Part shown: piece by piece, positions 17,918-27,585 of the stretch
How the letters are laid out: each line of letters opens with the position of its first letter
Numbering within the stretch: the stretch's first letter is position 1
Source of the DNA: an uncultured Desulfococcus sp.
GTDB lineage: Bacteria; Desulfobacterota; Desulfobacteria; Desulfobacterales; Desulfosalsimonadaceae
DNA length: 31,910 nucleotides
Direction: 5' to 3'
Assembly (NCBI GenBank): GCA_964594105.1
Contig: CAZQLG010000001.1
Coordinates: forward strand, 1 to 31,910
The notes under the pieces: model-generated
Database searches by the model: none
What the model was told of the DNA's origin: nothing
Seen by the model: the letters and a program-made list of their open reading frames with translations, nothing else
Translations under genes and position numbers: made by a program

Positions 17918-18310
17918 ATGGATTTTACAATCGAATTTGATAAGCAGCAGATTGAGTCAATTGAGAATATCCTGCAGGAAGAGCTTATTGATTTAGGGGT
18001 TCAAAGTGTTATTCTGATGGATCTGGCTGGCAACGTTATTGTTAATCTTGAAAACGGTGGTGCCAGTCATGACGTGTATTCCTTAGCTGCCCTTGCGGCC
18101 GGGAATTATGGGGCGGTCAGTGCAATGGCAAATATTATTGGTGAACAGGAATTTTCTCTTCTTTTTCATAAAGGCGAAGAAGAAAGTATTCATTTCAGTA
18201 AGGTTGTAGAAGATTTATTGTTGCTTACCATTTTTAACAAAAATGTATCTTTGGGCTTTTTGCGTTTAAAAGTCGCCGAAGCGATTAAAAGAATTCAAGT
18301 TTTGATATAG
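17918..18310 (+). CDS. mglB: MglB-like roadblock/LC7 GTPase-activating protein, 130 aa
   Basis: SLAALAAGNYGAVSAMANIIGEQEF...FHKG...SLGFLRLKV closely parallels Myxococcus MglB; immediately upstream of mglA. Confidence 0.9.
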   Translation: MDFTIEFDKQQIESIENILQEELIDLGVQSVILMDLAGNVIVNLENGGASHDVYSLAALAAGNYGAVSAMANIIGEQEFSLLFHKGEEESIHFSKVVEDLLLLTIFNKNVSLGFLRLKVAEAIKRIQVLI

Positions 18311-18390
18311 TCTTTTCTGATGTTGTTTATTGCCGGGAGGGTTTTTATCATCGGCAAAATTTTAACCTATGAGTGCTGGAGGTTGGTGGT

Positions 18391-18996
18391 TTGGCATTAA
18401 TAAATCCGAAAAAGAAGGAGGTCCAGGTAAAAATAGTCTACTATGGTCCCGGCCGAGGGGGTAAAACAACAAATCTTGAATATATTAATAAGAAGTTCAA
18501 AAAACGAATTCAGAATGAAATGGTGACGGTAAAAACGTATGGAGACCGAACTCTGTTTTTTGATTTTTTACCGTTTGATATAGGAGAAATTAAAGGGCAT
18601 AGCATTAAGGTCCAGCTATACACCGTACCCGGCCAGGTAAAATATAATGCCACGAGAAGACTGGTTCTAAGAGGCGTGGATGGCTTAGTATTTGTTGCTG
18701 ATTCAATGGATTTAAGACGTGAAATGAATATTCGTTCGTTACAAAATCTTAAAGAGAACCTGGAAACATTCAATAAAAGTATTTTCAATACCCCGCTGGT
18801 ATTGCAGTATAACAAACGCGATCTGGAAGAAGAAGGCATCCCTATTCTCTCAGTCGATACACTTCAAAGAGATTTGAACAGCCGGTTAAAAGCACCGAGT
18901 TTTGCGGCAAGTGCTGTTAAGGGGGATAATGTCGCAGCAACAATGAAAAAAATTATTGCATTAACCGTCGGATCATTGAGAAAAAAACTTGAATAG
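18391..18996 (+). CDS. mglA: MglA Ras-like small GTPase, about 201 aa
   Basis: KIVYYGPGRGGKTTNL (G1), DRTLFFDFLP (switch I Arg/Thr), YTVPGQ (switch II Gln), QYNKRDL (G4). TTG start at 18391 with GGAGG 7 nt upstream gives MALIN, matching the MglA N-terminus. Confidence 0.95.
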   Translation: MALINPKKKEVQVKIVYYGPGRGGKTTNLEYINKKFKKRIQNEMVTVKTYGDRTLFFDFLPFDIGEIKGHSIKVQLYTVPGQVKYNATRRLVLRGVDGLVFVADSMDLRREMNIRSLQNLKENLETFNKSIFNTPLVLQYNKRDLEEEGIPILSVDTLQRDLNSRLKAPSFAASAVKGDNVAATMKKIIALTVGSLRKKLE

Positions 18997-19008: not shown

Positions 19009-19749
19009 TTGACTACGAAGGATGATGATGGAAGCCTCGGGGCCGAGGTTTCAAGTCGATTAGATGAATTGTTTGGAGATGATGATGATTCCGAAGTGAC
19101 ACCGGTGTCAACCGTCCCTTCTGATGCAGTCAGTGTTGCTGGCGAATCAAAAAGAAAGGCCGGGAAAGCAGTTAAGCCCATGGCTGATAGTGCTTCTGAT
19201 AACCTGGACAAGGACTCTCCGATTAGAAATTTAAAGGCGCTGGTCTTTTCTATTGATTGGGAAATCACAGATGAGACAATGGTGGATTATCTTGTCGAAG
19301 TAAAGCGGCTTATGAAGGAATACAAAAACGATAAGATCCTTTCTCTTTTTTTGAAACTGCATGCATCCATCGGCAAGTATATTAAAGCCAAAAAGGCGCG
19401 CGCACACCCGGATTCCATTAAGTTTGTCGCATCTGTTTATAAAAATTTTGAAAAGGCTCTGCTGACGCCGGGAATGAAACAAAGTCAGAAAAAAAAGCTC
19501 CTGACGGTAGAAGTTAAAAAATTTAAGGATTTTAAACAACGGGTTCTTCTCCGGGATAGTACTGCCGAACCGGTACATGTTGTTGAATCTGTTGTAGTCG
19601 CGGATGATCAAAGGACGAAACCGATCAGTGGGGAAGGGCTGTCGAAGGAAACCAAAGAAGCGCTTGACTATATGCTGGAACAAATCAAAAAGGAAATTAA
19701 GGCTGAATTCCACACATTACGGCAGATAATCAAAAATCTCGGTGCCTGA
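19009..19749 (+). CDS. Conserved-looking hypothetical helical protein, 246 aa
   Basis: TTG start with GGAGG RBS 12 bp after mglA; acidic N-terminus (RLDELFGDDDD), helical core (LVFSIDWEITDE...IGKYI...AHPDS), C-terminal coiled-coil. Confidence 0.8.
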   Translation: MTTKDDDGSLGAEVSSRLDELFGDDDDSEVTPVSTVPSDAVSVAGESKRKAGKAVKPMADSASDNLDKDSPIRNLKALVFSIDWEITDETMVDYLVEVKRLMKEYKNDKILSLFLKLHASIGKYIKAKKARAHPDSIKFVASVYKNFEKALLTPGMKQSQKKKLLTVEVKKFKDFKQRVLLRDSTAEPVHVVESVVVADDQRTKPISGEGLSKETKEALDYMLEQIKKEIKAEFHTLRQIIKNLGA

Positions 19750-19838: not shown

Positions 19839-20309
19839 ATGAACGTTTTTGCCGGTGATATGGCCAAATTGGTTCTGAAAAGAACCGTTCGGGCGGATTT
19901 GGGAGAAGTCTCGCTGGATAGTGAGATGCTTCAGGTTCTGATGGAACTTGATGGGACAAAAAATCTCGGTCAGGTTGCCCAGTCGCTAAATATGAATTTG
20001 AAACAGTTAAGACTGGTTTTAAATCGTCTATACAAACTTCATCTTTGTGAAACCGCAAAAGAAGCGATTCCCAGACTGGACAAATCTTTTTTTCATTATT
20101 TATCCGCAGAGCTGGCCCGTGCTATGGGACCCATTGCAGATGTCGTGATTGAAGATGAAATCAGTGAAATGGGGGAGAGTCAATTGAAATTTCCCGCTCA
20201 CCGTGCTGCCGAACTGGTGGATTTACTGGCTCGCCAGATTCTCAGAGAAGAGAGAAAAGTCGCTTTTCAGCAAGCCATGGTTAGAAAGCTGCGGGAAGTA
20301 AAGGCATGA
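19839..20309 (+). CDS. Hypothetical protein with winged-helix-like N-terminal half and helical C-terminal domain, 156 aa
   Basis: GGAGG RBS; VLMELDGTKNLGQVAQSLNMNLKQLRLVLNRLYKLHL resembles a wHTH; C-terminal ELARAMGPIADVVIED motif. Confidence 0.75.
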   Translation: MNVFAGDMAKLVLKRTVRADLGEVSLDSEMLQVLMELDGTKNLGQVAQSLNMNLKQLRLVLNRLYKLHLCETAKEAIPRLDKSFFHYLSAELARAMGPIADVVIEDEISEMGESQLKFPAHRAAELVDLLARQILREERKVAFQQAMVRKLREVKA

Positions 20310-20380
20310 ATCAATCAAGTTAATTGATTTTAACGTGTTACATTATTCATTGTTGCCAATTTAATTAAGGAGGAGAAGAT

Positions 20381-21559
20381 ATGACGGTTATTTGTGAAGA
20401 GTGCGGGAAGGTTTATCATATAGATCCTGATAAGCTAGACCAGTATAAAGGTAAATCCGTCAGGGTTCGTTGTGGTGAATGCGGGCATGTGACCCAGATC
20501 TCAAAGTTGATTGAAGCGACGGAGGAACCAGCTGATGATTTCGCAGCCGCTGATATCCCTGATATGCCGTCATCGGTGCCTGGTGAAGAAGAAAGAGAGG
20601 AAGAACCTGTTGACCATTCGGAACGCATGAGCGCCGGAAGTACTGATGGCCGTTCCAGTGGATGGCTTGGATTAAGAGGAAAAATGATGATTCTTTTCCT
20701 TGTCCTTCCGATTCTTCTAATGGCAGTTTCCGGATATCTTTCTCAACAGCAGTTAAACAAACTGGCGAATGAAATTACCGAGGAGAGTACCGCCCTTGTT
20801 CTGGAAGAAGGTAAGGAAAAGCTCATGCAAAAAGCCAGGGATGTGGCATTGCAAGCCGAGATCTATCTGCGCGCCCACCCGGACCTTGTAAGAGAGGATT
20901 TTTTCTATGATCCTGACTTTAGTGGAATAGCCGTGCAAAGTGTCGGGCAGTCCGGTTACACCTGCATTATTCAGCAGCCGGAAGCGGATAAAGGTCAGAA
21001 CTGGACGATCTGGGCGCACCCCAATCCGAATATTATCGGAATTGATGATATTGATATGATCAGAAAGGCGCTGGGGCCCTATTTTGAGAATTTTTGGAAT
21101 GTGCTGACCGGTGCTCTGGGAATGAAAGAGTCTGAAGGTTTTTATCGCTGGAAAGATCCGGATGGAAAAATCAGGGAAAAATATATGGCACTTGCCCCGA
21201 TTCAGCTTGAAGGGAAGCCCTTTCTCTTGATGAGTACCGCGTATATTGATGAATTTACCAACAAGACGGAGGATCTTAAAAAACGGGCCCAAAAACTGTC
21301 TGTGGATACCCGGAATCTAAATTTTGGTATTCTGATCGGGGCGATTGTTTTGATTGGTTTAATTATTATCATCTATGGTTATAGATTAACCAGAAATATT
21401 CAGTATCTGACGGAAGCAGCTGATCGTATCAGTGTCGGTGATCTTGAGGCAGAAATTGATGTTCATTCAAAAGATGAAATCGGCAACCTTGCAGATGCGA
21501 TTTCAAGGATGCAGGACAGCCTCCGGTTTTCGATTGAGCGGTTAAGACGCAGACGATAA
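20381..21559 (+). CDS. Membrane sensor: Zn-ribbon + TM + Cache-like periplasmic domain + TM + HAMP, no output domain, 392 aa
   Basis: CEEC...CGEC; TM1 MMILFLVLPILLMAVSGYL; Cache-like SVGQSGYTCII, WAHPNP, YRWKDPDG; TM2 FGILIGAIVLIGLIIIIYGY; HAMP LTEAADRISVGDL...DEIGNLADAISRM; stop about 12 codons later. AAGGAGG RBS. Confidence 0.88.
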   Translation: MTVICEECGKVYHIDPDKLDQYKGKSVRVRCGECGHVTQISKLIEATEEPADDFAAADIPDMPSSVPGEEEREEEPVDHSERMSAGSTDGRSSGWLGLRGKMMILFLVLPILLMAVSGYLSQQQLNKLANEITEESTALVLEEGKEKLMQKARDVALQAEIYLRAHPDLVREDFFYDPDFSGIAVQSVGQSGYTCIIQQPEADKGQNWTIWAHPNPNIIGIDDIDMIRKALGPYFENFWNVLTGALGMKESEGFYRWKDPDGKIREKYMALAPIQLEGKPFLLMSTAYIDEFTNKTEDLKKRAQKLSVDTRNLNFGILIGAIVLIGLIIIIYGYRLTRNIQYLTEAADRISVGDLEAEIDVHSKDEIGNLADAISRMQDSLRFSIERLRRRR

Positions 21560-21580: not shown

Positions 21581-21627
21581 AACAAAACAAGCAATGTGTT
21601 AAATAACAACACATTGCTTGTTTTGTT
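21581..21627. terminator. Perfect 20-bp inverted repeat (terminator, RNA-processing stem or operator)
   Basis: aacaaaacaagcaatgtgtt (21581-21600) - aaataac - aacacattgcttgttttgtt (21608-21627). The structure is certain; the function is not. Confidence 0.6.
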
Positions 21628-21693: not shown

Positions 21694-22734
21694 ATGATTA
21701 TAATACCGAGGGAGAAATCGGCTGTTTCTGATTTAAACAGTTATTATCTTAAAATTGATAAATTAATCGAACATTATCAGGGCGCCTTGGGTACCGGTGG
21801 GGTGTATTTTAAATCTCCGATATCTGAAGGTGTTGTTTTTTTTGATGAGGACAACCTGCTCAATGGTTATTATAAAGATAAAAAAGTAGAGCTCAAAGGC
21901 GGGGCCGCTTTAAGAAAAATTAACGAAACCGCTTCAAAAAATAATTATTTGGTAACAGTGTATTATATTTTGCCGGAGAGGGTTTATTACTGGGCAAACC
22001 TTTCCAATGCGGAACCATTATATCGTGATTTGAGCTCAGAGTTTACGGACCTTGAAGGCCTGATTAAAAAGATGGAAAATGAAAAAGTTACCGGCTACAT
22101 TGATGTGAAATTCAATCAGGATGCCGGTGGTGGGCTGTTGTTTATTTACAATGGTGAAGTCATTGGCGGTGCCTCCTCCCAAGGTGTTGATGCGCTGGAT
22201 CGATCTGTTGAGTATCGGGATGATTTAATAACAAGATCCCGGGAATTCGGTGGTAATTTTAATGTTAAGAAAATTCAATTGTCAACGATTACCTCTCTGT
22301 CAAAACCCTCAGCTCCTGATAAGGAGACCAAGCTGGTTCTAAAGCCGTCCAAACCCAAAAAAACAAAAGCACTCCCTCAAAAAGATTCGCAGCGTGTTTT
22401 GCGTATGCTACAGGATCTTTTGGTGCTATTGGAGAAAGTGGTTCGGTCAAACAAACGGATAAAGGTTGATTTCGAAACCCTGTTAAACAAACAGTTTGTT
22501 GATAAAGTGGATCAATATGATTTTCTTGATCCATTTGCCGCTGAATTTCGATATTCGAACGGCAAGGTAACATTCAGCGGAAGAGCGAGCCAGAAAGAGC
22601 TTGTCGCTTCGATTACAGAGTGTGTTAAAGATATGGCGTTAAGTCTTGGCATGACAGCGGTTTTTAGAAAATATCTGGCAACATGGAAAAAAAACTATAC
22701 GGATGAAATTATTGATTTTAATATAGAAATGTAG
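21694..22734 (+). CDS. Hypothetical protein with two PATAN/DUF4388-like beta modules, 346 aa
   Basis: TGGVYFKSPISEGVVFFDEDNLLNG and TGYIDVKFNQDAGGGLLFIYNGEV; the second aligns with the PATAN segment of the next gene at 10/24 identities. Confidence 0.75.
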   Translation: MIIIPREKSAVSDLNSYYLKIDKLIEHYQGALGTGGVYFKSPISEGVVFFDEDNLLNGYYKDKKVELKGGAALRKINETASKNNYLVTVYYILPERVYYWANLSNAEPLYRDLSSEFTDLEGLIKKMENEKVTGYIDVKFNQDAGGGLLFIYNGEVIGGASSQGVDALDRSVEYRDDLITRSREFGGNFNVKKIQLSTITSLSKPSAPDKETKLVLKPSKPKKTKALPQKDSQRVLRMLQDLLVLLEKVVRSNKRIKVDFETLLNKQFVDKVDQYDFLDPFAAEFRYSNGKVTFSGRASQKELVASITECVKDMALSLGMTAVFRKYLATWKKNYTDEIIDFNIEM

Positions 22735-22803: not shown

Positions 22804-23937
22804 ATGAGACCCAATGTTTTAATTGTTGATGATGATCAGGCATTTTTACGCTTGATCCAGAAAGATCTTGAAGGCTTTTCAGAATCATTTAATGTCTTAA
22901 CAGCTGATGCTGGAAACGCCGCTTTGGAATTGCTGAAAAAGACATATGTATCATTTATTGTCTCTGATTTAAGAATGCCGGGAATGGACGGGTTTGAGTT
23001 CCTGACAATTATTTTGAAAAAATTTCCGGATATTCCTGTTTATATGATGACCTCTTATGATAAACCAAAGACGAAGGATGTGGTTATTAAAAGTGGTGCG
23101 GCCGGTTATTTGAAAAAACCGTTTACTGCCATTGAGTTGTTTGGTGAAATAACAAAAACGTTAAATAAAAAAGCGGAAGGCGGAAGCCTTCACAATGTAA
23201 CGTTGGAAACATTTCTTCAACTCATTGAAATGGAACAGCAGACAAGTACATTGCGGGTTGTTGATAAAAAAGAAGCGCAGGGGGGTGTTCTTTTTTTCAG
23301 GAACGGTGAACTGATGAATGCCCGGGTTGGTGATATGCAGGGAAAGGCTGCCGCCTATGAAATCTTATCCTGGTCCAATGTTTCATTATCCATTGAGCAG
23401 GACTGCGTATTTCAGGAAAAGATTATCCAGGGTGATCTTCAGGCCATTTTATTGGATGCCATGCGGGTAAAAGACGAGTTGGCTGAAAAAAATGAAATGG
23501 GAGATGACGCTGAAAATAGTGAAATCCTTTTGGATGCACCGTTATCAGAAACAGAAGAGGATTTGGCGGAAGCAAAATTTGAACCACCTGTCGACCGGAT
23601 TTCGACGAAGAAACCAGAAACCACAGTAAAGGTGCACCCGATAAAAGAAGCAGTTGAATTGTCAAAACTTTCTCCGATTGATACCATTCGTATGAAAATT
23701 AAAAATTCTATTGGCGACCGAGATGGCATTTTGGATATATTCCATGACCCGAATTGGGATGCATTGATAGATCAGGCTTCAAATATCGGGAATGCCTTTA
23801 ATTGTGGGCGATTAAATGTTTTATATGTCAACCGTGAGAAAGATGATCAGTTTATCATTGTCCCGGGAGAAGAAACGACGGCCATATCAATTTCGGCGGA
23901 TGCCCCCTGGGATCGAATTATTGATGTTCTGGGATAG
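22804..23937 (+). CDS. Response regulator REC + PATAN/DUF4388 + acidic linker + C-terminal alpha/beta domain, 377 aa
   Basis: LIVDDD, VSDLRMPGMDG (phospho-Asp), MMTS, YLKKPF; GSLHNVTLETFLQLIEMEQQTSTLRV...GVLFFRNGELMNA...AAYEILSW is the PATAN signature. Confidence 0.9.
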   Translation: MRPNVLIVDDDQAFLRLIQKDLEGFSESFNVLTADAGNAALELLKKTYVSFIVSDLRMPGMDGFEFLTIILKKFPDIPVYMMTSYDKPKTKDVVIKSGAAGYLKKPFTAIELFGEITKTLNKKAEGGSLHNVTLETFLQLIEMEQQTSTLRVVDKKEAQGGVLFFRNGELMNARVGDMQGKAAAYEILSWSNVSLSIEQDCVFQEKIIQGDLQAILLDAMRVKDELAEKNEMGDDAENSEILLDAPLSETEEDLAEAKFEPPVDRISTKKPETTVKVHPIKEAVELSKLSPIDTIRMKIKNSIGDRDGILDIFHDPNWDALIDQASNIGNAFNCGRLNVLYVNREKDDQFIIVPGEETTAISISADAPWDRIIDVLG

Positions 23938-24000: not shown

Positions 24001-24369
24001 ATGAAAGATATATTTAAAGATGTAATGGGAATCGCAGGCGTCCATGGTTTAATGGTTATTACGAATGAGGGTAGCGTGCTGCTGAGCAGGTTTGATCCGG
24101 ACTATCGGCGTGAGGAGGAAAAACTTTCTCAAATCAATTGGGAGCCTTTTACCATTGAGATGAATAGTATTAAAGATGCAGAAATCGTTTATGACAGCGC
24201 ACGGTTTTATATAAAAAAAAGAGATACCGAATTTTTGATCGTGATTATCGGCGATAACGCACCGATTTCTATGGTACGCCTTAATTGTGAAATTTTGCTT
24301 CCATTGCTGAAAAAAATTCAACCGGCCAGTAAAAGAATCGGTAACCTCCTGAGGAAAAAAATATTTTAA
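24001..24369 (+). CDS. Second, divergent roadblock/LC7-like protein, 122 aa
   Basis: DVMGIAGVHGLMVITNEGSVL N-terminus and LIVIIGDNAPISMVRLNCE C-terminus match the roadblock pattern. Confidence 0.65.
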   Translation: MKDIFKDVMGIAGVHGLMVITNEGSVLLSRFDPDYRREEEKLSQINWEPFTIEMNSIKDAEIVYDSARFYIKKRDTEFLIVIIGDNAPISMVRLNCEILLPLLKKIQPASKRIGNLLRKKIF

Positions 24370-24567: not shown

Positions 24568-26955
24568 ATGGAAAGTGTTCAAACGACAACTGAAGATTAT
24601 CAAGCCAAAATCAAATCTGCAGAAGCCTATGAGAAACATGGACTTTATGATGAAGCTTTGGAATTATATAAAGATATCTTATCCGGGGATGCTGATCTGG
24701 AAGAAGAAGTTATTCAGAAAATTAAATTCAAAGTAGATGAACTCGGTAAGGAAATTGAGGACAATGACAATCCATCTCCGTATAACCTGTCAACCGAAGA
24801 TGTCTCTCACATAAAAACCGGGCTTTCAACCGGAGAAAGCGGTCCGGATATCTATAACAGTGCCACCGCTTTCAAAGAACTTGGCTTGTACCGGGAGGCC
24901 ATTTCAGAATATAAAAAATTATTTCAGACAGATTATTTAACGGATGATTTTTTGGCGGATTTTTTGGAATGTAGCCTGGCAGTGAACAGCCCGGCAGATG
25001 TTGTTAAGGAAGTTGATCAGATTATTACCGAAAATAATATTGAGAAGAAAGCCCGGGCCGCGATTCATTTTATGCTGGGTGGTGAACTGGATAAGCGACA
25101 CTATAAAGAGCAGGCGATTAAATGTTATGAAGCGGTCCAAAAAATTGATCCGATTTATCCTCAAATTAAAAGGAGAATTGAGTCTGTTCAACCGGATAAA
25201 CGATTTGACTCTCGATATGATTATCTGTTGCGCAACAAAATCGTGGATACGGACCAGCTTCAAAAAGGACTGGCCCTGTCCAAAAAAATGAAAAAAAGTG
25301 TTGAAGCTGTTTTGATGGAACAGTTTAAAACATCCAAAGAAGATATTGGAAAGTCTCTTTCCGCTTATTACGGTTGCCCGTTTAAAGTGTTTGATGCCAA
25401 AATGGAAGTGCCTTATGAGTTGATCAGCAATTTAAAAAAACCTTTTTTAATCCAGGATGTTTGGGTGCCGCTGCATTGGGAAATCGATCATATTGAGATT
25501 TTGATCGATGACCCAAAGGATCTTAGCAAGTTAGATCATGCCAAAGCGCTTTTTAATACGAACAAGTTTATATTTTCTGTTGGTATTAAAGAGGATATTG
25601 TCGAAATTATAAACCATTTTTTTGCACAGGGGAAGACGCGCAAAAAAGAAGTCGGCACCGGGGCATCCACGGATGAATTTGATCAAATGCCGGATATCGC
25701 ATTTGAAGAGGTCGATGAAGAAGAGGATGATGGCGATGAAACATTTAACGAAGCCTCCGGAAAAGTCGTTCAGCTGGTGGATCAGGTACTGATTACGGCA
25801 TATCGCAAAGATGCATCTGATATACACATAGAACCGTCTACCATCTCAAAAAGGACAAAAATTCGTTTCAGGATTGACGGGGTTTGCCAGGATTTTCTTG
25901 AAGTTCCGAATTCCTTTGCAACAGCGATCCTGTCCAGAATTAAAATCATGGCAAATCTTGATATCGCAGAAAAACGTTTACCTCAGGATGGGAAAATCAA
26001 ATTTAAACGAAAAGGGATACCGACCTTTGAATTACGGGTCGCAACGGTGCCTACCGCCGATAGTCAGGAAGATGTTGTTATGAGAATTCTGGCAACCAGC
26101 GGCGCGATGAAACTGGAAGACCTGACCCTGACTGAAAGAAATATGGAAGTTTTATTAAAGGCAATCGCCAAGCCTTACGGCCTGGTTCTTGTTGTTGGCC
26201 CCACCGGATCGGGTAAGACAACAACCCTGCATTCAGCACTGCACCATATTAATACACCGGCGCGTAAAATTTGGACGGCTGAAGATCCAGTTGAAATCTC
26301 TCAGCTCGGGTTACGCCAGGTTGAGATTAAGAATAAGATCGGTCTGGATTTTGCCAGGGTTATGCGGGCATTTTTGAGGGCCGATCCTGACATCATCATG
26401 GTGGGTGAGATGCGCGACTATGAGACAGCATCTATCGGCGTTGAAGCCTCGTTGACCGGTCATTTGGTTTTTTCTACACTCCACACCAACAGTGCCCCTG
26501 AAACGGTGACTCGTCTTTTGGATATGGGGCTGAATCCATTAAATTTTTCTGATGCATTCCTTGCTGTACTGGCACAACGTCTGCTCCGCCGATTGTGTAA
26601 GAATTGTCGGAAAGCGTATTCACCGAGCCAGGAAGCGTTTGATGATATTGTGCACGATTATGGAGAAGAAGATTTTAAACAGACCGGAATAAAATTTTCT
26701 TCAGATCTGACGCTGTATTCACCGGTTGGTTGTGATCAGTGTAATGGATCAGGATATAAAGGTCGATTGGGAATTCATGAGCTCATGGAAGGAACGGCAG
26801 ACATCAAACGAATGATCAAAAAACAGGCCAGTGCGGAAGAATTATTTGTGAAAGCAAATGAACAAGGTATGACAACCCTTATGCAGGACGGAATCCTGAA
26901 GGTTTTTGGGGGACATTCGGATATGGATGAAGTCCGAAGGGTTTGTATTAGTTAG
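24568..26955 (+). CDS. pilB: PilB/GspE-family (type IV pilus / T2SS) extension ATPase with N-terminal TPR domain, 795 aa
   Basis: ASDIHIEP, RFRIDG, LDIAEKRLPQDG, Walker A GPTGSGKTTT, TAEDPVE, Walker B DPDIIMVGEMRD, TGHLVFSTLH, Zn site CKNC...CDQC. PilB versus GspE versus orphan paralogue cannot be resolved from this window. Confidence 0.85.
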   Translation: MESVQTTTEDYQAKIKSAEAYEKHGLYDEALELYKDILSGDADLEEEVIQKIKFKVDELGKEIEDNDNPSPYNLSTEDVSHIKTGLSTGESGPDIYNSATAFKELGLYREAISEYKKLFQTDYLTDDFLADFLECSLAVNSPADVVKEVDQIITENNIEKKARAAIHFMLGGELDKRHYKEQAIKCYEAVQKIDPIYPQIKRRIESVQPDKRFDSRYDYLLRNKIVDTDQLQKGLALSKKMKKSVEAVLMEQFKTSKEDIGKSLSAYYGCPFKVFDAKMEVPYELISNLKKPFLIQDVWVPLHWEIDHIEILIDDPKDLSKLDHAKALFNTNKFIFSVGIKEDIVEIINHFFAQGKTRKKEVGTGASTDEFDQMPDIAFEEVDEEEDDGDETFNEASGKVVQLVDQVLITAYRKDASDIHIEPSTISKRTKIRFRIDGVCQDFLEVPNSFATAILSRIKIMANLDIAEKRLPQDGKIKFKRKGIPTFELRVATVPTADSQEDVVMRILATSGAMKLEDLTLTERNMEVLLKAIAKPYGLVLVVGPTGSGKTTTLHSALHHINTPARKIWTAEDPVEISQLGLRQVEIKNKIGLDFARVMRAFLRADPDIIMVGEMRDYETASIGVEASLTGHLVFSTLHTNSAPETVTRLLDMGLNPLNFSDAFLAVLAQRLLRRLCKNCRKAYSPSQEAFDDIVHDYGEEDFKQTGIKFSSDLTLYSPVGCDQCNGSGYKGRLGIHELMEGTADIKRMIKKQASAEELFVKANEQGMTTLMQDGILKVFGGHSDMDEVRRVCIS

Positions 26956-27150: not shown

Positions 27151-27585
27151 ATGGGTCTTTTCTTTAAACGCCTTCTTAAATTTTTTAATCGGTCTTCTGG
27201 TCAGAAATATGAAGCCCCGCCAGATTTGAAATCGTATAAAAGATCCTTTAATCGTTTCCCCATTGAATTTGAAGTTATTGCATCTGTTCTTGATGGTGAC
27301 GCACATCGTGACACTGAAAGAAGTGAACTCCATGATGTGTCCGGTGGGGGCGCCATGTTTATCTCATGCTGGCCCGAAAGGTATTATCCGGGACAGCTTT
27401 TGAAACTGGATATTTTTTTAACCGGGACGGAAGATGTTCGCGCCTGCATTAAAACCGAGGCCTCTGTTGTCCGTATCCATCAAATTGAGATTAATGGTCA
27501 GAAAAGAACAGGTATTGCAGTAAAATTTCATAAGCCTTTTGAATTTGAAAGAATGGATCGTTCTTTTTTCGGTAATCTACCATGA
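27151..27585 (+). CDS. Stand-alone PilZ-domain protein with intact c-di-GMP motifs, 144 aa
   Basis: RSFNR (RxxxR), DVSGGG (DxSxxG), ASVVRI, GIAVKF. Confidence 0.88.
   Translation: MGLFFKRLLKFFNRSSGQKYEAPPDLKSYKRSFNRFPIEFEVIASVLDGDAHRDTERSELHDVSGGGAMFISCWPERYYPGQLLKLDIFLTGTEDVRACIKTEASVVRIHQIEINGQKRTGIAVKFHKPFEFERMDRSFFGNLP

What the first reader, a model, noticed from the sequence alone, without database searches (positions are those of the whole stretch)
20381..21559. Output-less membrane receptor whose only cytoplasmic effector is an N-terminal Zn-ribbon: a possible MglA/MglB-recruiting sensor
Seen: CxxC...CxxC Zn ribbon (aa 5-34), an acidic linker, TM1, about 200 aa of Cache-like periplasmic domain, TM2 and HAMP, then ...SIERLRRRR-stop. 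No kinase, MCP, GGDEF or cyclase domain follows the HAMP, and the stop is followed by a perfect hairpin, so this does not look like a frameshift. Established: the Myxococcus gliding protein GltJ/AgmX uses a cytoplasmic zinc-finger plus adjacent linker to bind MglB and MglA-GTP. Inference: ligand binding could be relayed through HAMP to expose or hide the Zn-ribbon/linker and locally control GTP hydrolysis, making this a functional analogue of a GPCR.
Basis: partly seen in the sequence, partly recalled or inferred. Interest (0 to 1): 0.82.

Follow-up and report, generated by a model that had tools for sequence, protein, structure and literature searches.

The report
Af1503-type receptor in MglA switch cluster
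This intact membrane sensor, which ends right after its HAMP relay domain, is a bacterial relative of the enigmatic archaeal receptor Af1503 with an added zinc ribbon, and its conserved place among genes for a Ras-like polarity switch suggests testable downstream partners.

Summary
The 392-aa ORF has an MJ0042-type Zn ribbon, a disordered linker, TM1, a periplasmic PAS/Cache-like domain, TM2 and a HAMP, then stops. All orthologues down to 45% identity end at the same place, so it is not a truncation.

What it is: a family profile matches full-length Af1503, the textbook effector-less HAMP receptor, at E = 3e-24 over the whole sensor and HAMP. As with Af1503/Af1502, the gene follows one for a STAC-like protein. 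Both sit in a conserved module: mglB, mglA, a STAC-like protein, the receptor, PATAN proteins, a PilB-like ATPase and PilZ.

The receptor lies within 5 kb of mglA in 17 of 51 sampled genomes that carry the family, across nine GTDB families with shuffled gene order.

The claim that the Zn ribbon is the effector is not:
- A ribbon-less sister clade sits in the same mgl clusters.
- Ribbon-bearing paralogues sit beside solute-binding-protein genes instead.
- The linker has no conserved motif.
- The complex prediction gave no verdict.

The most conserved cytoplasmic part shared by the whole family is HAMP helix AS2 plus a basic tail.

The scan has met related Af1503-like/PATAN/Roadblock clusters before on other DNA.

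The parts
20367..20373 (+). Ribosome-binding site AAGGAGG, 7 nt before the ATG
   Evidence: Read directly from the sequence.
20381..20500 (+). Cytoplasmic MJ0042-type Zn ribbon (aa 1-40; Cys 5, 8, 31, 34)
   Evidence: Pfam Zn_ribbon_4 E 2e-8. TIGR02098 above cutoff. The four Cys are invariant in 84 homologues. Best PDB hit is the GltJ/AgmX ribbon 7ZOK. AF2 shows four short strands at pLDDT 84-91.
20501..20668 (+). Disordered linker (aa 41-96), acidic in this lineage
   Evidence: pLDDT below 50 over aa 49-81. Length 41-87 aa, no conserved motif, and the charge flips to basic in Desulfobotulus homologues.
20669..20743 (+). Juxtamembrane GLRxK motif and TM1 (aa 97-121)
   Evidence: G97 and K101 are at least 90% conserved. 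A continuous helix runs from aa 98. The segment MMILFLVLPILLMAVSGYL is hydrophobic.
20744..21316 (+). Periplasmic single PAS/Cache-like sensor domain (aa 122-312), homologous to that of Af1503
   Evidence: The family profile aligns to 4CQ4 (Af1503) across this domain, total E 3e-24. VIA-align Z 11-12 to Tlp1, PctB, WalK and TlpB sensor domains. Foldseek TMt 0.69 to erWalK and 0.65 to TlpB.
21317..21379 (+). TM2 (aa 313-333)
   Evidence: Hydrophobic segment NFGILIGAIVLIGLIIIIYG within the continuous helix aa 289-351.
21380..21526 (+). HAMP domain (aa 334-382)
   Evidence: Pfam HAMP E 1e-12. The closest solved sequences are HtrII HAMP1 and Af1503 HAMP.
21527..21559 (+). Conserved basic helical tail (FSIERLRRRR) and stop codon
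   Evidence: The family consensus ends in SIERLRRRR. This is the most conserved stretch, together with AS2. It is shared by ribbon-less and unlinked members. AF2 continues helix AS2 to aa 391.
21581..21627 (+). Perfect 20-bp hairpin after the stop, conserved in orthologous loci
   Evidence: dG -27.8 kcal/mol, z -7.1, and none of 200 shuffles folds as well. The stem is invariant in 6 loci while the loop and flanks vary.
19839..20309 (+). o156: winged-helix + STAC-like four-helix domain, immediately upstream of the receptor (candidate Af1502 equivalent)
   Evidence: Invariant G97-P98 and A100 (at least 90%) between h1 and h2. AF2 pLDDT 86 with four helices and a 9-residue inter-hairpin linker. 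Af1502 (5A1Q) at Z 6.8 with 68/68 residues aligned, rank 7 of 48,161. Weak profile hit to 5A1Q at the motif, E 0.2. A homologue lies next to the receptor in the fetched loci of both clades where one is detected.
17918..18310 (+). mglB-like Roadblock/LC7 gene
   Evidence: Pfam Robl_LC7 E 1.5e-7. NCBIfam MglB model E 8e-17, below its cutoff. 85-98% identical in the 28 Desulfobacterales loci.
18373..18996 (+). mglA-like Ras-family GTPase (TVPGQ in place of DxxGQ)
   Evidence: Pfam Ras/Arf. TVPGQ read from the translation; that this substitution is the MglA hallmark is stated for M. xanthus Thr78 in the abstract of PMC3000849. 86-99% identical in orthologous loci.
19009..19749 (+). o246: unannotated protein following mglA
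   Evidence: No significant Pfam or NCBIfam hit. Syntenic in ribbon-bearing loci. An o246-like domain is found in longer ORFs of ribbon-less loci.
21694..22734 (+). o346: tandem PATAN-like protein with a C-terminal domain carrying an invariant FLDPF motif; one of the two most persistent neighbours of the receptor (with o156)
   Evidence: Two stretches resemble the PATAN core of the next gene. Distant homologues pass the DUF4388 cutoff. F277-L278-D279-P280-F281 are invariant. It lies next to or near the receptor in every linked locus and in L050.
22804..23937 (+). Response-regulator receiver + PATAN (DUF4388) protein
   Evidence: Pfam Response_reg E 1e-25 and DUF4388 E 1e-13.
24001..24369 (+). 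o122: small conserved protein, possibly Roadblock-like
   Evidence: No Pfam hit. Its family HMM weakly cross-hits MglB ORFs (E 2e-4 to 5e-4). BLASTP against MglB is not significant.
24568..26955 (+). PilB/GspE-type ATPase with N-terminal TPR and MshEN
   Evidence: Pfam T2SSE E 4e-118, MshEN E 9e-7; TPR_2 E 1e-5, 25.7 bits, just under its 27-bit cutoff. Present in distant linked loci.
27151..27585 (+). PilZ-domain protein
   Evidence: Pfam PilZ E 6e-7.

Best explanation
The gene encodes an intact inner-membrane receptor of the Af1503-like family. These are dimeric TM / periplasmic PAS-Cache / TM / HAMP proteins that end after the HAMP and have no enzymatic output. This lineage has added an N-terminal cytoplasmic MJ0042-type Zn ribbon on a disordered tether. 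Shown: homology to Af1503 over the whole sensor and HAMP; conservation of the effector-less architecture; a STAC-like partner gene directly upstream, as with Af1502 beside Af1503; and recurrent linkage of the STAC-protein / receptor / PATAN-protein triad to mglB-mglA, REC-PATAN and a PilB-like ATPase. Inferred: a periplasmic ligand changes the HAMP conformation. The HAMP AS2 helix and its conserved basic tail then change how the receptor binds the neighbouring STAC-like protein (o156) and/or the PATAN adaptor (o346). Through these adaptors the receptor biases the MglA-GTP/MglB switch at the membrane, and so the PilB-like motor. On this reading the Zn ribbon is a clade-specific accessory docking module. 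It may hold MglB, as in GltJ, but it is not required for coupling.
For: Intact, conserved, effector-less architecture. The family profile hits full-length Af1503 (4CQ4) at E 3e-24 over profile positions 120-378. The Af1503-like family is described as effector-less and often coupled to STAC proteins (PMC4834066). Evidence that o156 is STAC-like: invariant GP motif, four-helix two-hairpin model, and Af1502 at Z 6.8 with full coverage. Synteny is perfect in 28 Desulfobacterales loci. The cluster is retained with different flanks at 48% and 39% identity. The receptor lies within 5 kb of mglA in 17 of 51 family-bearing genomes from nine GTDB families, with shuffled gene order; my rough chance expectation is under one genome. 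HMM searches recover o346, o156, an o246-like domain, o122, MglB and REC-PATAN in many of the linked ribbon-less loci (o346 in every one of them). The tree places mgl linkage on both sides of the deepest, 100/100-supported split. AS2 plus the basic tail is the most conserved segment and is shared by all subgroups. PATAN response regulators are reported to interact with the type IV pilus motor in Synechocystis (bioRxiv 10.1101/2021.06.11.447907, title and abstract only).
Against: No physical interaction was shown or predicted here; the only complex job, on a different pair, gave no verdict. The STAC assignment rests on a modest Z for a helical bundle and a non-significant profile hit (E 0.2). 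Genome neighbours are related, so the 17 linked genomes are not 17 independent events. Roughly a third of sampled family members are not near mglA, and published Af1503-like contexts are transport-related, so the family is not tied to Mgl as a whole. The Zn ribbon is itself highly conserved within its clade, so it must do something that this model leaves open. No ligand is known.
Confidence: 0.6

Rival explanations
1. The Zn ribbon and its linker are the receptor's effector. As in GltJ, the ribbon binds MglB and the linker binds MglA-GTP, and HAMP movements expose or hide them, making a receptor-gated GAP platform.
For: The ribbon is MJ0042-type and its best solved relative is the GltJ ribbon. 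In GltJ the ribbon binds MglB and the linker binds MglA-GTP (PMC11135422). The gene lies 1.4 kb from mglB-mglA in a conserved cluster. The ribbon is strongly conserved within its clade. Only three such ribbons exist in this genome, so it is not a ubiquitous tag here.
Against: The ribbon-less sister clade sits in the same mgl/PATAN/PilB-like clusters. Ribbon-bearing paralogues with near-identical ribbon motifs lie next to solute-binding-protein genes with no mgl genes nearby. The linker has no conserved motif and even reverses charge. There is no GYF domain. The other two ribbons in the genome are on unrelated proteins. The GltJ paper itself found no correlation between ZnR-GYF proteins and mglAB operons outside Myxococcales.
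Confidence: 0.2
2. The receptor is a scaffold or landmark rather than a ligand-gated switch. It anchors the Mgl/PATAN/PilB-like assembly at a membrane site, with the ribbon and basic tail acting as static docking or lipid-binding elements.
For: There is no enzymatic output. The poly-Arg tail lies next to the membrane and could bind anionic lipids (inference). The module contains several adaptor-type proteins (PATAN, Roadblock-like, STAC-like).
Against: The periplasmic PAS/Cache-like domain and a canonical HAMP are well conserved, which is hard to explain without signal sensing and relay. Conserved periplasmic residues (Q186, G192, T194, H213, G253) suggest a ligand or partner site.
Confidence: 0.1
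3. The receptor serves solute transport or uptake regulation, like the published contexts of Af1503-like receptors, and its adjacency to mgl genes has no functional meaning.
For: Af1503-like receptors are reported in transport-rich neighbourhoods (PMC4834066). Ribbon-bearing paralogues sit beside DctP-type and, from N-terminal sequence alone, other solute-binding-protein-like genes.
Against: Linkage to mglA/PATAN persists across nine GTDB families with rearranged order and different flanks. No transporter gene is in the window's cluster.
Confidence: 0.07
4. The gene is a truncated histidine kinase or chemoreceptor (a frameshift or pseudogene).
For: HAMP domains usually precede an output domain. 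A few distant relatives of the sensor+HAMP module are long multi-domain proteins (e.g. 765 and 1118 aa).
Against: Full-length orthologues are 376-436 aa and end at the same tail. 187 clusters at 50% identity score below 1e-30, and most are 360-420 aa aligned to their C-terminus. Only a 134-nt spacer with a conserved hairpin separates the gene from the next one.
Confidence: 0.01

Closest known systems
Af1503 of Archaeoglobus fulgidus and the Af1503-like receptor family, with the STAC protein Af1502 (Lupas group; PMC4834066)
   Same: TM / periplasmic domain / TM / HAMP architecture ending after the HAMP. Sequence homology runs over the whole sensor and HAMP (profile E 3e-24 to 4CQ4). A gene for a STAC-like four-helix protein with the GP motif lies adjacent. 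Some paralogues sit in transport-type neighbourhoods, as published for the family.
   Different: It is bacterial. It carries an extra N-terminal Zn ribbon and tether. The STAC-like domain is fused to a winged helix and its gene lies upstream rather than downstream. The pair is embedded in an mglB-mglA / PATAN / PilB-like module, which I did not find described for this family in the searchable literature.
GltJ (AgmX) Zn-ribbon / linker switch of the Myxococcus xanthus Agl-Glt gliding machinery (PMC11135422; PDB 7ZOK)
   Same: An N-terminal cytoplasmic MJ0042-type ribbon followed by a long flexible linker on a membrane protein. The system is associated with MglA/MglB.
   Different: There is no GYF domain, no conserved MglA-binding linker motif, and no Glt/Agl genes nearby. 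The rest of the protein is unrelated (receptor + HAMP). Ribbon-less relatives occupy the same mgl clusters, so the ribbon is not needed for the association.
Actinobacterial conservon (CvnA-D), a membrane HAMP kinase with MglB-like, DUF742 and MglA-like proteins (PMC4316618; PMC12236503)
   Same: A membrane HAMP sensor encoded with a Roadblock protein, a small helical/wHTH-type protein and an MglA-family GTPase. It has likewise been compared to receptor-coupled G-protein signalling.
   Different: CvnA has a histidine-kinase module, whereas this receptor has none. PATAN proteins, a PilB-like ATPase and PilZ are part of this cluster but not of conservons. No match to DUF742 was detected.
MglA/MglB polarity module with PATAN neighbours (Makarova et al. 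2006, as cited in PMC4316618; Wuichet and Sogaard-Andersen 2014)
   Same: An mglB-mglA pair with PATAN-domain proteins nearby. The GTPase carries the TVPGQ motif typical of MglA.
   Different: Published surveys report only occasional PATAN neighbours and no membrane receptor. Here a fixed multi-gene module includes an Af1503-like receptor and a STAC-like protein.

Membership tests
Af1503-like effector-less HAMP receptors | TM1 / extracytoplasmic domain / TM2 / HAMP topology | tested here: met
   AF2 model and hydrophobic segments; Pfam HAMP.
Af1503-like effector-less HAMP receptors | The protein ends after the HAMP with no recognisable effector module, and this is conserved in relatives | tested here: met
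   No domain follows aa 382. Full-length orthologues are 376-436 aa. Most of the 187 clusters below 1e-30 end at the same point.
Af1503-like effector-less HAMP receptors | Sequence homology to Af1503 beyond the HAMP (the periplasmic domain) | tested here: met
   Profile A1 against 4CQ4_A: E 3e-24, profile positions 120-378 to chain residues 6-304. With the single sequence only the HAMP is detected.
Af1503-like effector-less HAMP receptors | Genomic coupling to a STAC-domain protein (four-helix bundle, LGPx(x)A motif) | tested here: inconclusive
   The adjacent o156 has an invariant GP(I/V/M)(A/S) motif between h1 and h2 and a four-helix model. Af1502 scores Z 6.8 with 68/68 residues aligned. 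However the profile hit is only E 0.2, and a Z of this size is common for helical bundles.
GltJ-type ZnR-linker(-GYF) molecular switch | N-terminal MJ0042-type CxxC...CxxC Zn ribbon | tested here: met
GltJ-type ZnR-linker(-GYF) molecular switch | A discrete linker motif that binds MglA-GTP and docks the ribbon | tested here: not met
   No conserved linker motif was found. Length is 41-87 aa and the charge is variable.
GltJ-type ZnR-linker(-GYF) molecular switch | GYF domain after the linker | tested here: not met
   No such domain; the linker runs straight into TM1.
GltJ-type ZnR-linker(-GYF) molecular switch | The ribbon binds MglB | not testable with these tools
   The complex job gave no verdict. 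This needs NMR, ITC or pull-down assays.
Conservon (CvnA-D) | The membrane sensor carries a histidine-kinase module (HisKA/HATPase) | tested here: not met
   No kinase domain.
Conservon (CvnA-D) | Roadblock (CvnB) and MglA-like GTPase (CvnD) in the same operon | tested here: met
   Robl_LC7 and Ras-family genes lie 1.4-2.5 kb upstream on the same strand.
Cache sensor domains (Pfam Cache clan) | Match to a Cache profile above the gathering score | tested here: not met
   Cache_3-Cache_2 scores 13.7 bits against a cutoff of 27.7. One orthologue carries a precomputed PF17201 hit.
Cache sensor domains (Pfam Cache clan) | Long N-terminal helix plus PAS-like alpha/beta fold in the periplasm | tested here: met
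   VIA-align Z 11-12 to Tlp1, PctB, WalK, TlpC and TlpB sensor domains; Foldseek.

The most novel reading that the evidence does not exclude
The receptor is a two-handed platform. Its HAMP tail engages the STAC/PATAN adaptors in a ligand-dependent way, while the tethered Zn ribbon holds MglB, as the GltJ ribbon does. Periplasmic ligand binding would then gate local GTP hydrolysis by MglA and switch a PilB-like motor. This would be a genuine receptor-coupled small-GTPase pathway in bacteria, and the first assigned output for an Af1503-type receptor.
Probability: 0.15. Interest if true: 0.85.

Novelty: new variant of a known kind. Interest (0 to 1): 0.6.

Why it matters
Af1503 supplied the first HAMP structure and remains a standard model for transmembrane signalling, yet what such effector-less receptors signal to is still unknown. 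Only a coupling to STAC proteins and transport genes has been proposed. This locus places a bacterial Af1503-like receptor and a STAC-like partner inside a conserved MglA/MglB, PATAN and PilB-like module. That gives concrete, testable downstream candidates.

It also suggests a dedicated membrane receptor input to the MglA polarity switch outside Myxococcus. From my own knowledge, the known input in Myxococcus is the Frz chemosensory system.

Finally, it shows that the GltJ-type Zn ribbon is an optional add-on to this receptor, which limits how far the GltJ mechanism can be generalised.

Tried and rejected
1. Complex prediction of aa 1-97 with an MglB dimer, MglA and GTP gave no verdict (score 0.00, partner pLDDT about 42). 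It is not evidence either way.

2. I suspected that o246, the gene after mglA, co-occurs with the ribbon, because tblastn found it only in ribbon-bearing loci. A family HMM then found an o246-like domain in longer ORFs of seven ribbon-less loci, so this was a detection artefact.

3. 'Acidic linker' as a functional trait is rejected. The linker is basic in Desulfobotulus homologues and variable elsewhere.

4. I looked for a separately encoded Zn ribbon in ribbon-less loci and found none.

5. Synteny among the 28 closest loci is not informative on its own, because the housekeeping flanks mutS-amiC-purB are equally conserved. I relied on more distant loci instead.

6. I tried to reach archaeal genomes, including Af1503's own neighbourhood, through a DUF2226 family search. 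Control genomes get no handles, so Af1503's context was not examined here.

7. o122 against MglB by BLASTP is not significant. There is only a weak HMM cross-hit, so 'second Roadblock' remains tentative.

9. Foldseek and VIA-align did not list 4CQ4 among their top rows. The Af1503 link rests on the sequence profile.

10. The text of the GltJ paper does not list the MglB-contacting ribbon residues, so residue-level comparison was not possible.
Full report
**The observation**

ORF 20381-21559 (+) encodes 392 aa behind a strong RBS.
- Pfam finds Zn_ribbon_4 (aa 1-37, E 2e-8) and HAMP (aa 334-382, E 1e-12). Cache_3-Cache_2 is only a sub-threshold match.
- NCBIfam TIGR02098 (MJ0042_CXXC) passes its cutoff. 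The GltJ model matches weakly, over the ribbon only.
- An AlphaFold2 model built on 84 homologues is confident (pLDDT 87). It shows a four-stranded ribbon, a disordered stretch at aa 49-81, a helix from aa 98 through TM1, an alpha/beta domain at aa 178-288, and a helix through TM2 into HAMP AS1. AS2 runs to aa 391.
- The periplasmic domain aligns to Cache/PAS sensor domains at Z 11-12. The overall architecture resembles WalK.
- The hairpin after the stop is a perfect 20-bp stem (dG -27.8 kcal/mol, z -7.1). Its stem is invariant in six orthologous loci while the loop and flanks vary.

**It is not a truncation**

The 120 best homologues (45-99% identity) are 376-436 aa, apart from three fragments of 270-354 aa. 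Nearly all carry Zn_ribbon_4 + HAMP and none has an additional domain. An exhaustive search finds 187 clusters (at 50% identity) below 1e-30, and most are 360-420 aa aligned right to their C-terminus. The four Cys are invariant. The family consensus ends in SIERLRRRR, and AS2 plus this tail is the most conserved stretch of the protein.

**What the family is**

A profile of the family matches the full-length, solubilised Af1503 receptor (PDB 4CQ4) at E 3e-24. The match covers profile positions 120-378, which is the entire periplasmic domain, TM2 and HAMP, with shared motifs throughout. The HAMP alone is closest to HtrII HAMP1 and Af1503.

[quoted passage not shown] They report that these receptors are often genomically coupled to small STAC proteins such as Af1502, in transport-rich neighbourhoods (PMC4834066). 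The same profile also matches the GltJ ribbon (7ZOK) at E 9e-8. The protein is therefore an Af1503-like receptor with an added MJ0042/GltJ-type ribbon.

**A STAC-like partner**

The gene immediately upstream (o156, 19839-20309) has a variable winged helix and a conserved C-terminal domain. G97-P98 is invariant and A100 is at least 90% conserved between two helices, which matches the LGPx(x)A signature of STAC. Its model (pLDDT 86) shows four helices arranged as two hairpins joined by a 9-residue linker. Against 48,161 chains, Af1502 (5A1Q) ranks 7th, with Z 6.8 and all 68 residues aligned. A profile search places 5A1Q at the motif, but only at E 0.2. I regard the STAC assignment as likely but not proven.

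**The genomic context**

The window carries, on one strand:
- mglB-like Roadblock
- mglA-like GTPase (TVPGQ motif)
- o246
- o156
- the receptor
- o346 (two PATAN-like modules; its distant homologues pass the DUF4388 cutoff)
- REC-PATAN
- o122
- a TPR-MshEN-PilB-like ATPase
- PilZ

Synteny is perfect in 28 Desulfobacterales loci, but so are the housekeeping flanks, so that alone proves little. The informative cases are more distant. In Desulfobotulus (48% identity) and in a 39%-identity contig the flanks differ but the cluster remains.

In a sample of 401 genomes of the phylum, 51 carry the receptor family and 229 carry mglA. In 17 of the 51, from nine GTDB families, the two genes lie within 5 kb on one contig. 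Thirteen of these loci were fetched, and they show shuffled gene orders. My rough chance expectation is well under one genome, though relatives are not independent. Family HMMs recover o346, o156, an o246-like domain, o122, MglB and REC-PATAN in many of these distant loci, and o346 in all of them. The minimal recurring core is the triad of STAC-like protein, receptor and PATAN protein (for example L050, where mglA lies elsewhere in the genome).

**The Zn ribbon is not what ties the receptor to Mgl**

- Many linked homologues are 289-302 aa and start at TM1. They have no ribbon, and no separate ribbon ORF lies nearby.
- A tree of the sensor core splits with 100/100 support. One clade is ribbon-less (9 of 10 mgl-linked). 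The other is the ribbon clade (9 linked, 7 unlinked, plus one row, L051, in which no ribbon is detectable).
- The unlinked ribbon-bearing paralogues have near-identical ribbon motifs. Several sit beside DctP-type or (judged from N-terminal sequence) other solute-binding-protein-like genes, which fits the published transport context of the family.
- The tether is 41-87 aa with no conserved motif, and it switches from acidic to basic between lineages. In GltJ, by contrast, a discrete linker motif binds MglA-GTP and the ribbon binds MglB (PMC11135422).
- The genome has only two other MJ0042 ribbons, both on unrelated proteins.
- The complex prediction for the ribbon-linker with MglB2/MglA/GTP gave no verdict.

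**Mechanism**

Shown: the architecture, the family membership, the conserved partner genes and the linkage to mglA.

Inferred: ligand binding in the periplasm is relayed by the HAMP to AS2 and the basic tail. These change the receptor's engagement with the STAC-like protein and/or the PATAN adaptors. The adaptors in turn bias MglA/MglB and the PilB-like ATPase. PATAN regulators are reported to contact the pilus motor in Synechocystis. The ribbon is probably an accessory docking module gained in one clade. A GltJ-like grip on MglB remains possible (about 0.2) but is not needed for the association.

**Novelty**

The following are already known:
- effector-less Af1503-like receptors with STAC partners
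- occasional PATAN genes near mglA/mglB (PMC4316618)
- the conservon's HAMP kinase with MglB/MglA-like proteins

I found no paper that mentions Af1503 together with MglA, Roadblock or GTPase. The ribbon-bearing variant inside an Mgl/PATAN/PilB-like module appears to be undescribed. The scan has reported related Af1503-like/STAC/PATAN/Roadblock clusters on other DNA. I reached the Af1503 link independently and tested the STAC lead here.

Noticed in passing
window 21581-21627: A perfect 20-bp hairpin lies between the receptor gene and o346. Its stem is invariant across six orthologous loci while the loop and flanks vary. It could be an intra-operon terminator/attenuator, a processing or stabilising element, or a protein-binding site.
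   Followed up: partly
window 21694-22734 (o346), aa 275-287: The C-terminal domain of the tandem-PATAN protein carries an invariant Y-x-F-L-D-P-F-(A/V)-x-E-F-x-Y motif across 17 homologues down to 24% identity. Its function is unknown. It resembles the STAC LGPxxA motif but is not identical to it.
   Followed up: partly
one search hits P0212, P0215, P0230, P0237 and others (872-1858 aa): The receptor's periplasmic domain (about aa 137-302) recurs two to four times in very long proteins. The sensor module therefore also exists as tandem repeats in giant proteins of unknown type.
   Followed up: no
G000 contig C225 (L055:3443-5285, minus strand): The genome has a second mglA paralogue (56% identical). 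It is directly followed by a 401-aa ORF with a weak PATAN-like match. The contig ends just upstream, so whether a second mglB precedes it is unknown.
   Followed up: partly
G000 contigs C597 (L054:287-1348) and C382 (L053:2345-3127): These are the only other MJ0042-type ribbons in the genome. One heads what looks, by eye, like an HDOD-type signalling protein. The other heads a protein with long acidic repeats (SFDDIDQADDSDALSF...), cut off by the contig end.
   Followed up: partly
L047:11330-12598, L048:8269-9051, L031:2062-3081: Ribbon-bearing receptor paralogues outside mgl clusters sit next to periplasmic solute-binding-protein-like genes (DctP by Pfam in L031; the other two judged only from signal-peptide-like N-termini). 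L048 also has a second ribbon-bearing ORF 1.8 kb upstream of the receptor. This suggests receptor / binding-protein pairs.
   Followed up: partly
window 24001-24369 (o122): This small conserved protein has no Pfam hit. Its family HMM weakly cross-hits MglB ORFs in distant loci (E 2e-4 to 5e-4), so it may be a divergent second Roadblock protein.
   Followed up: partly
window 19839-20060 (o156, aa 1-73): The best structural matches of the N-terminal winged helix of the STAC-like protein are winged helices in the GATOR1 and SEA complexes (Z 9.2 and 8.8), which regulate Rag GTPases. This may be no more than a generic winged-helix resemblance.
   Followed up: no
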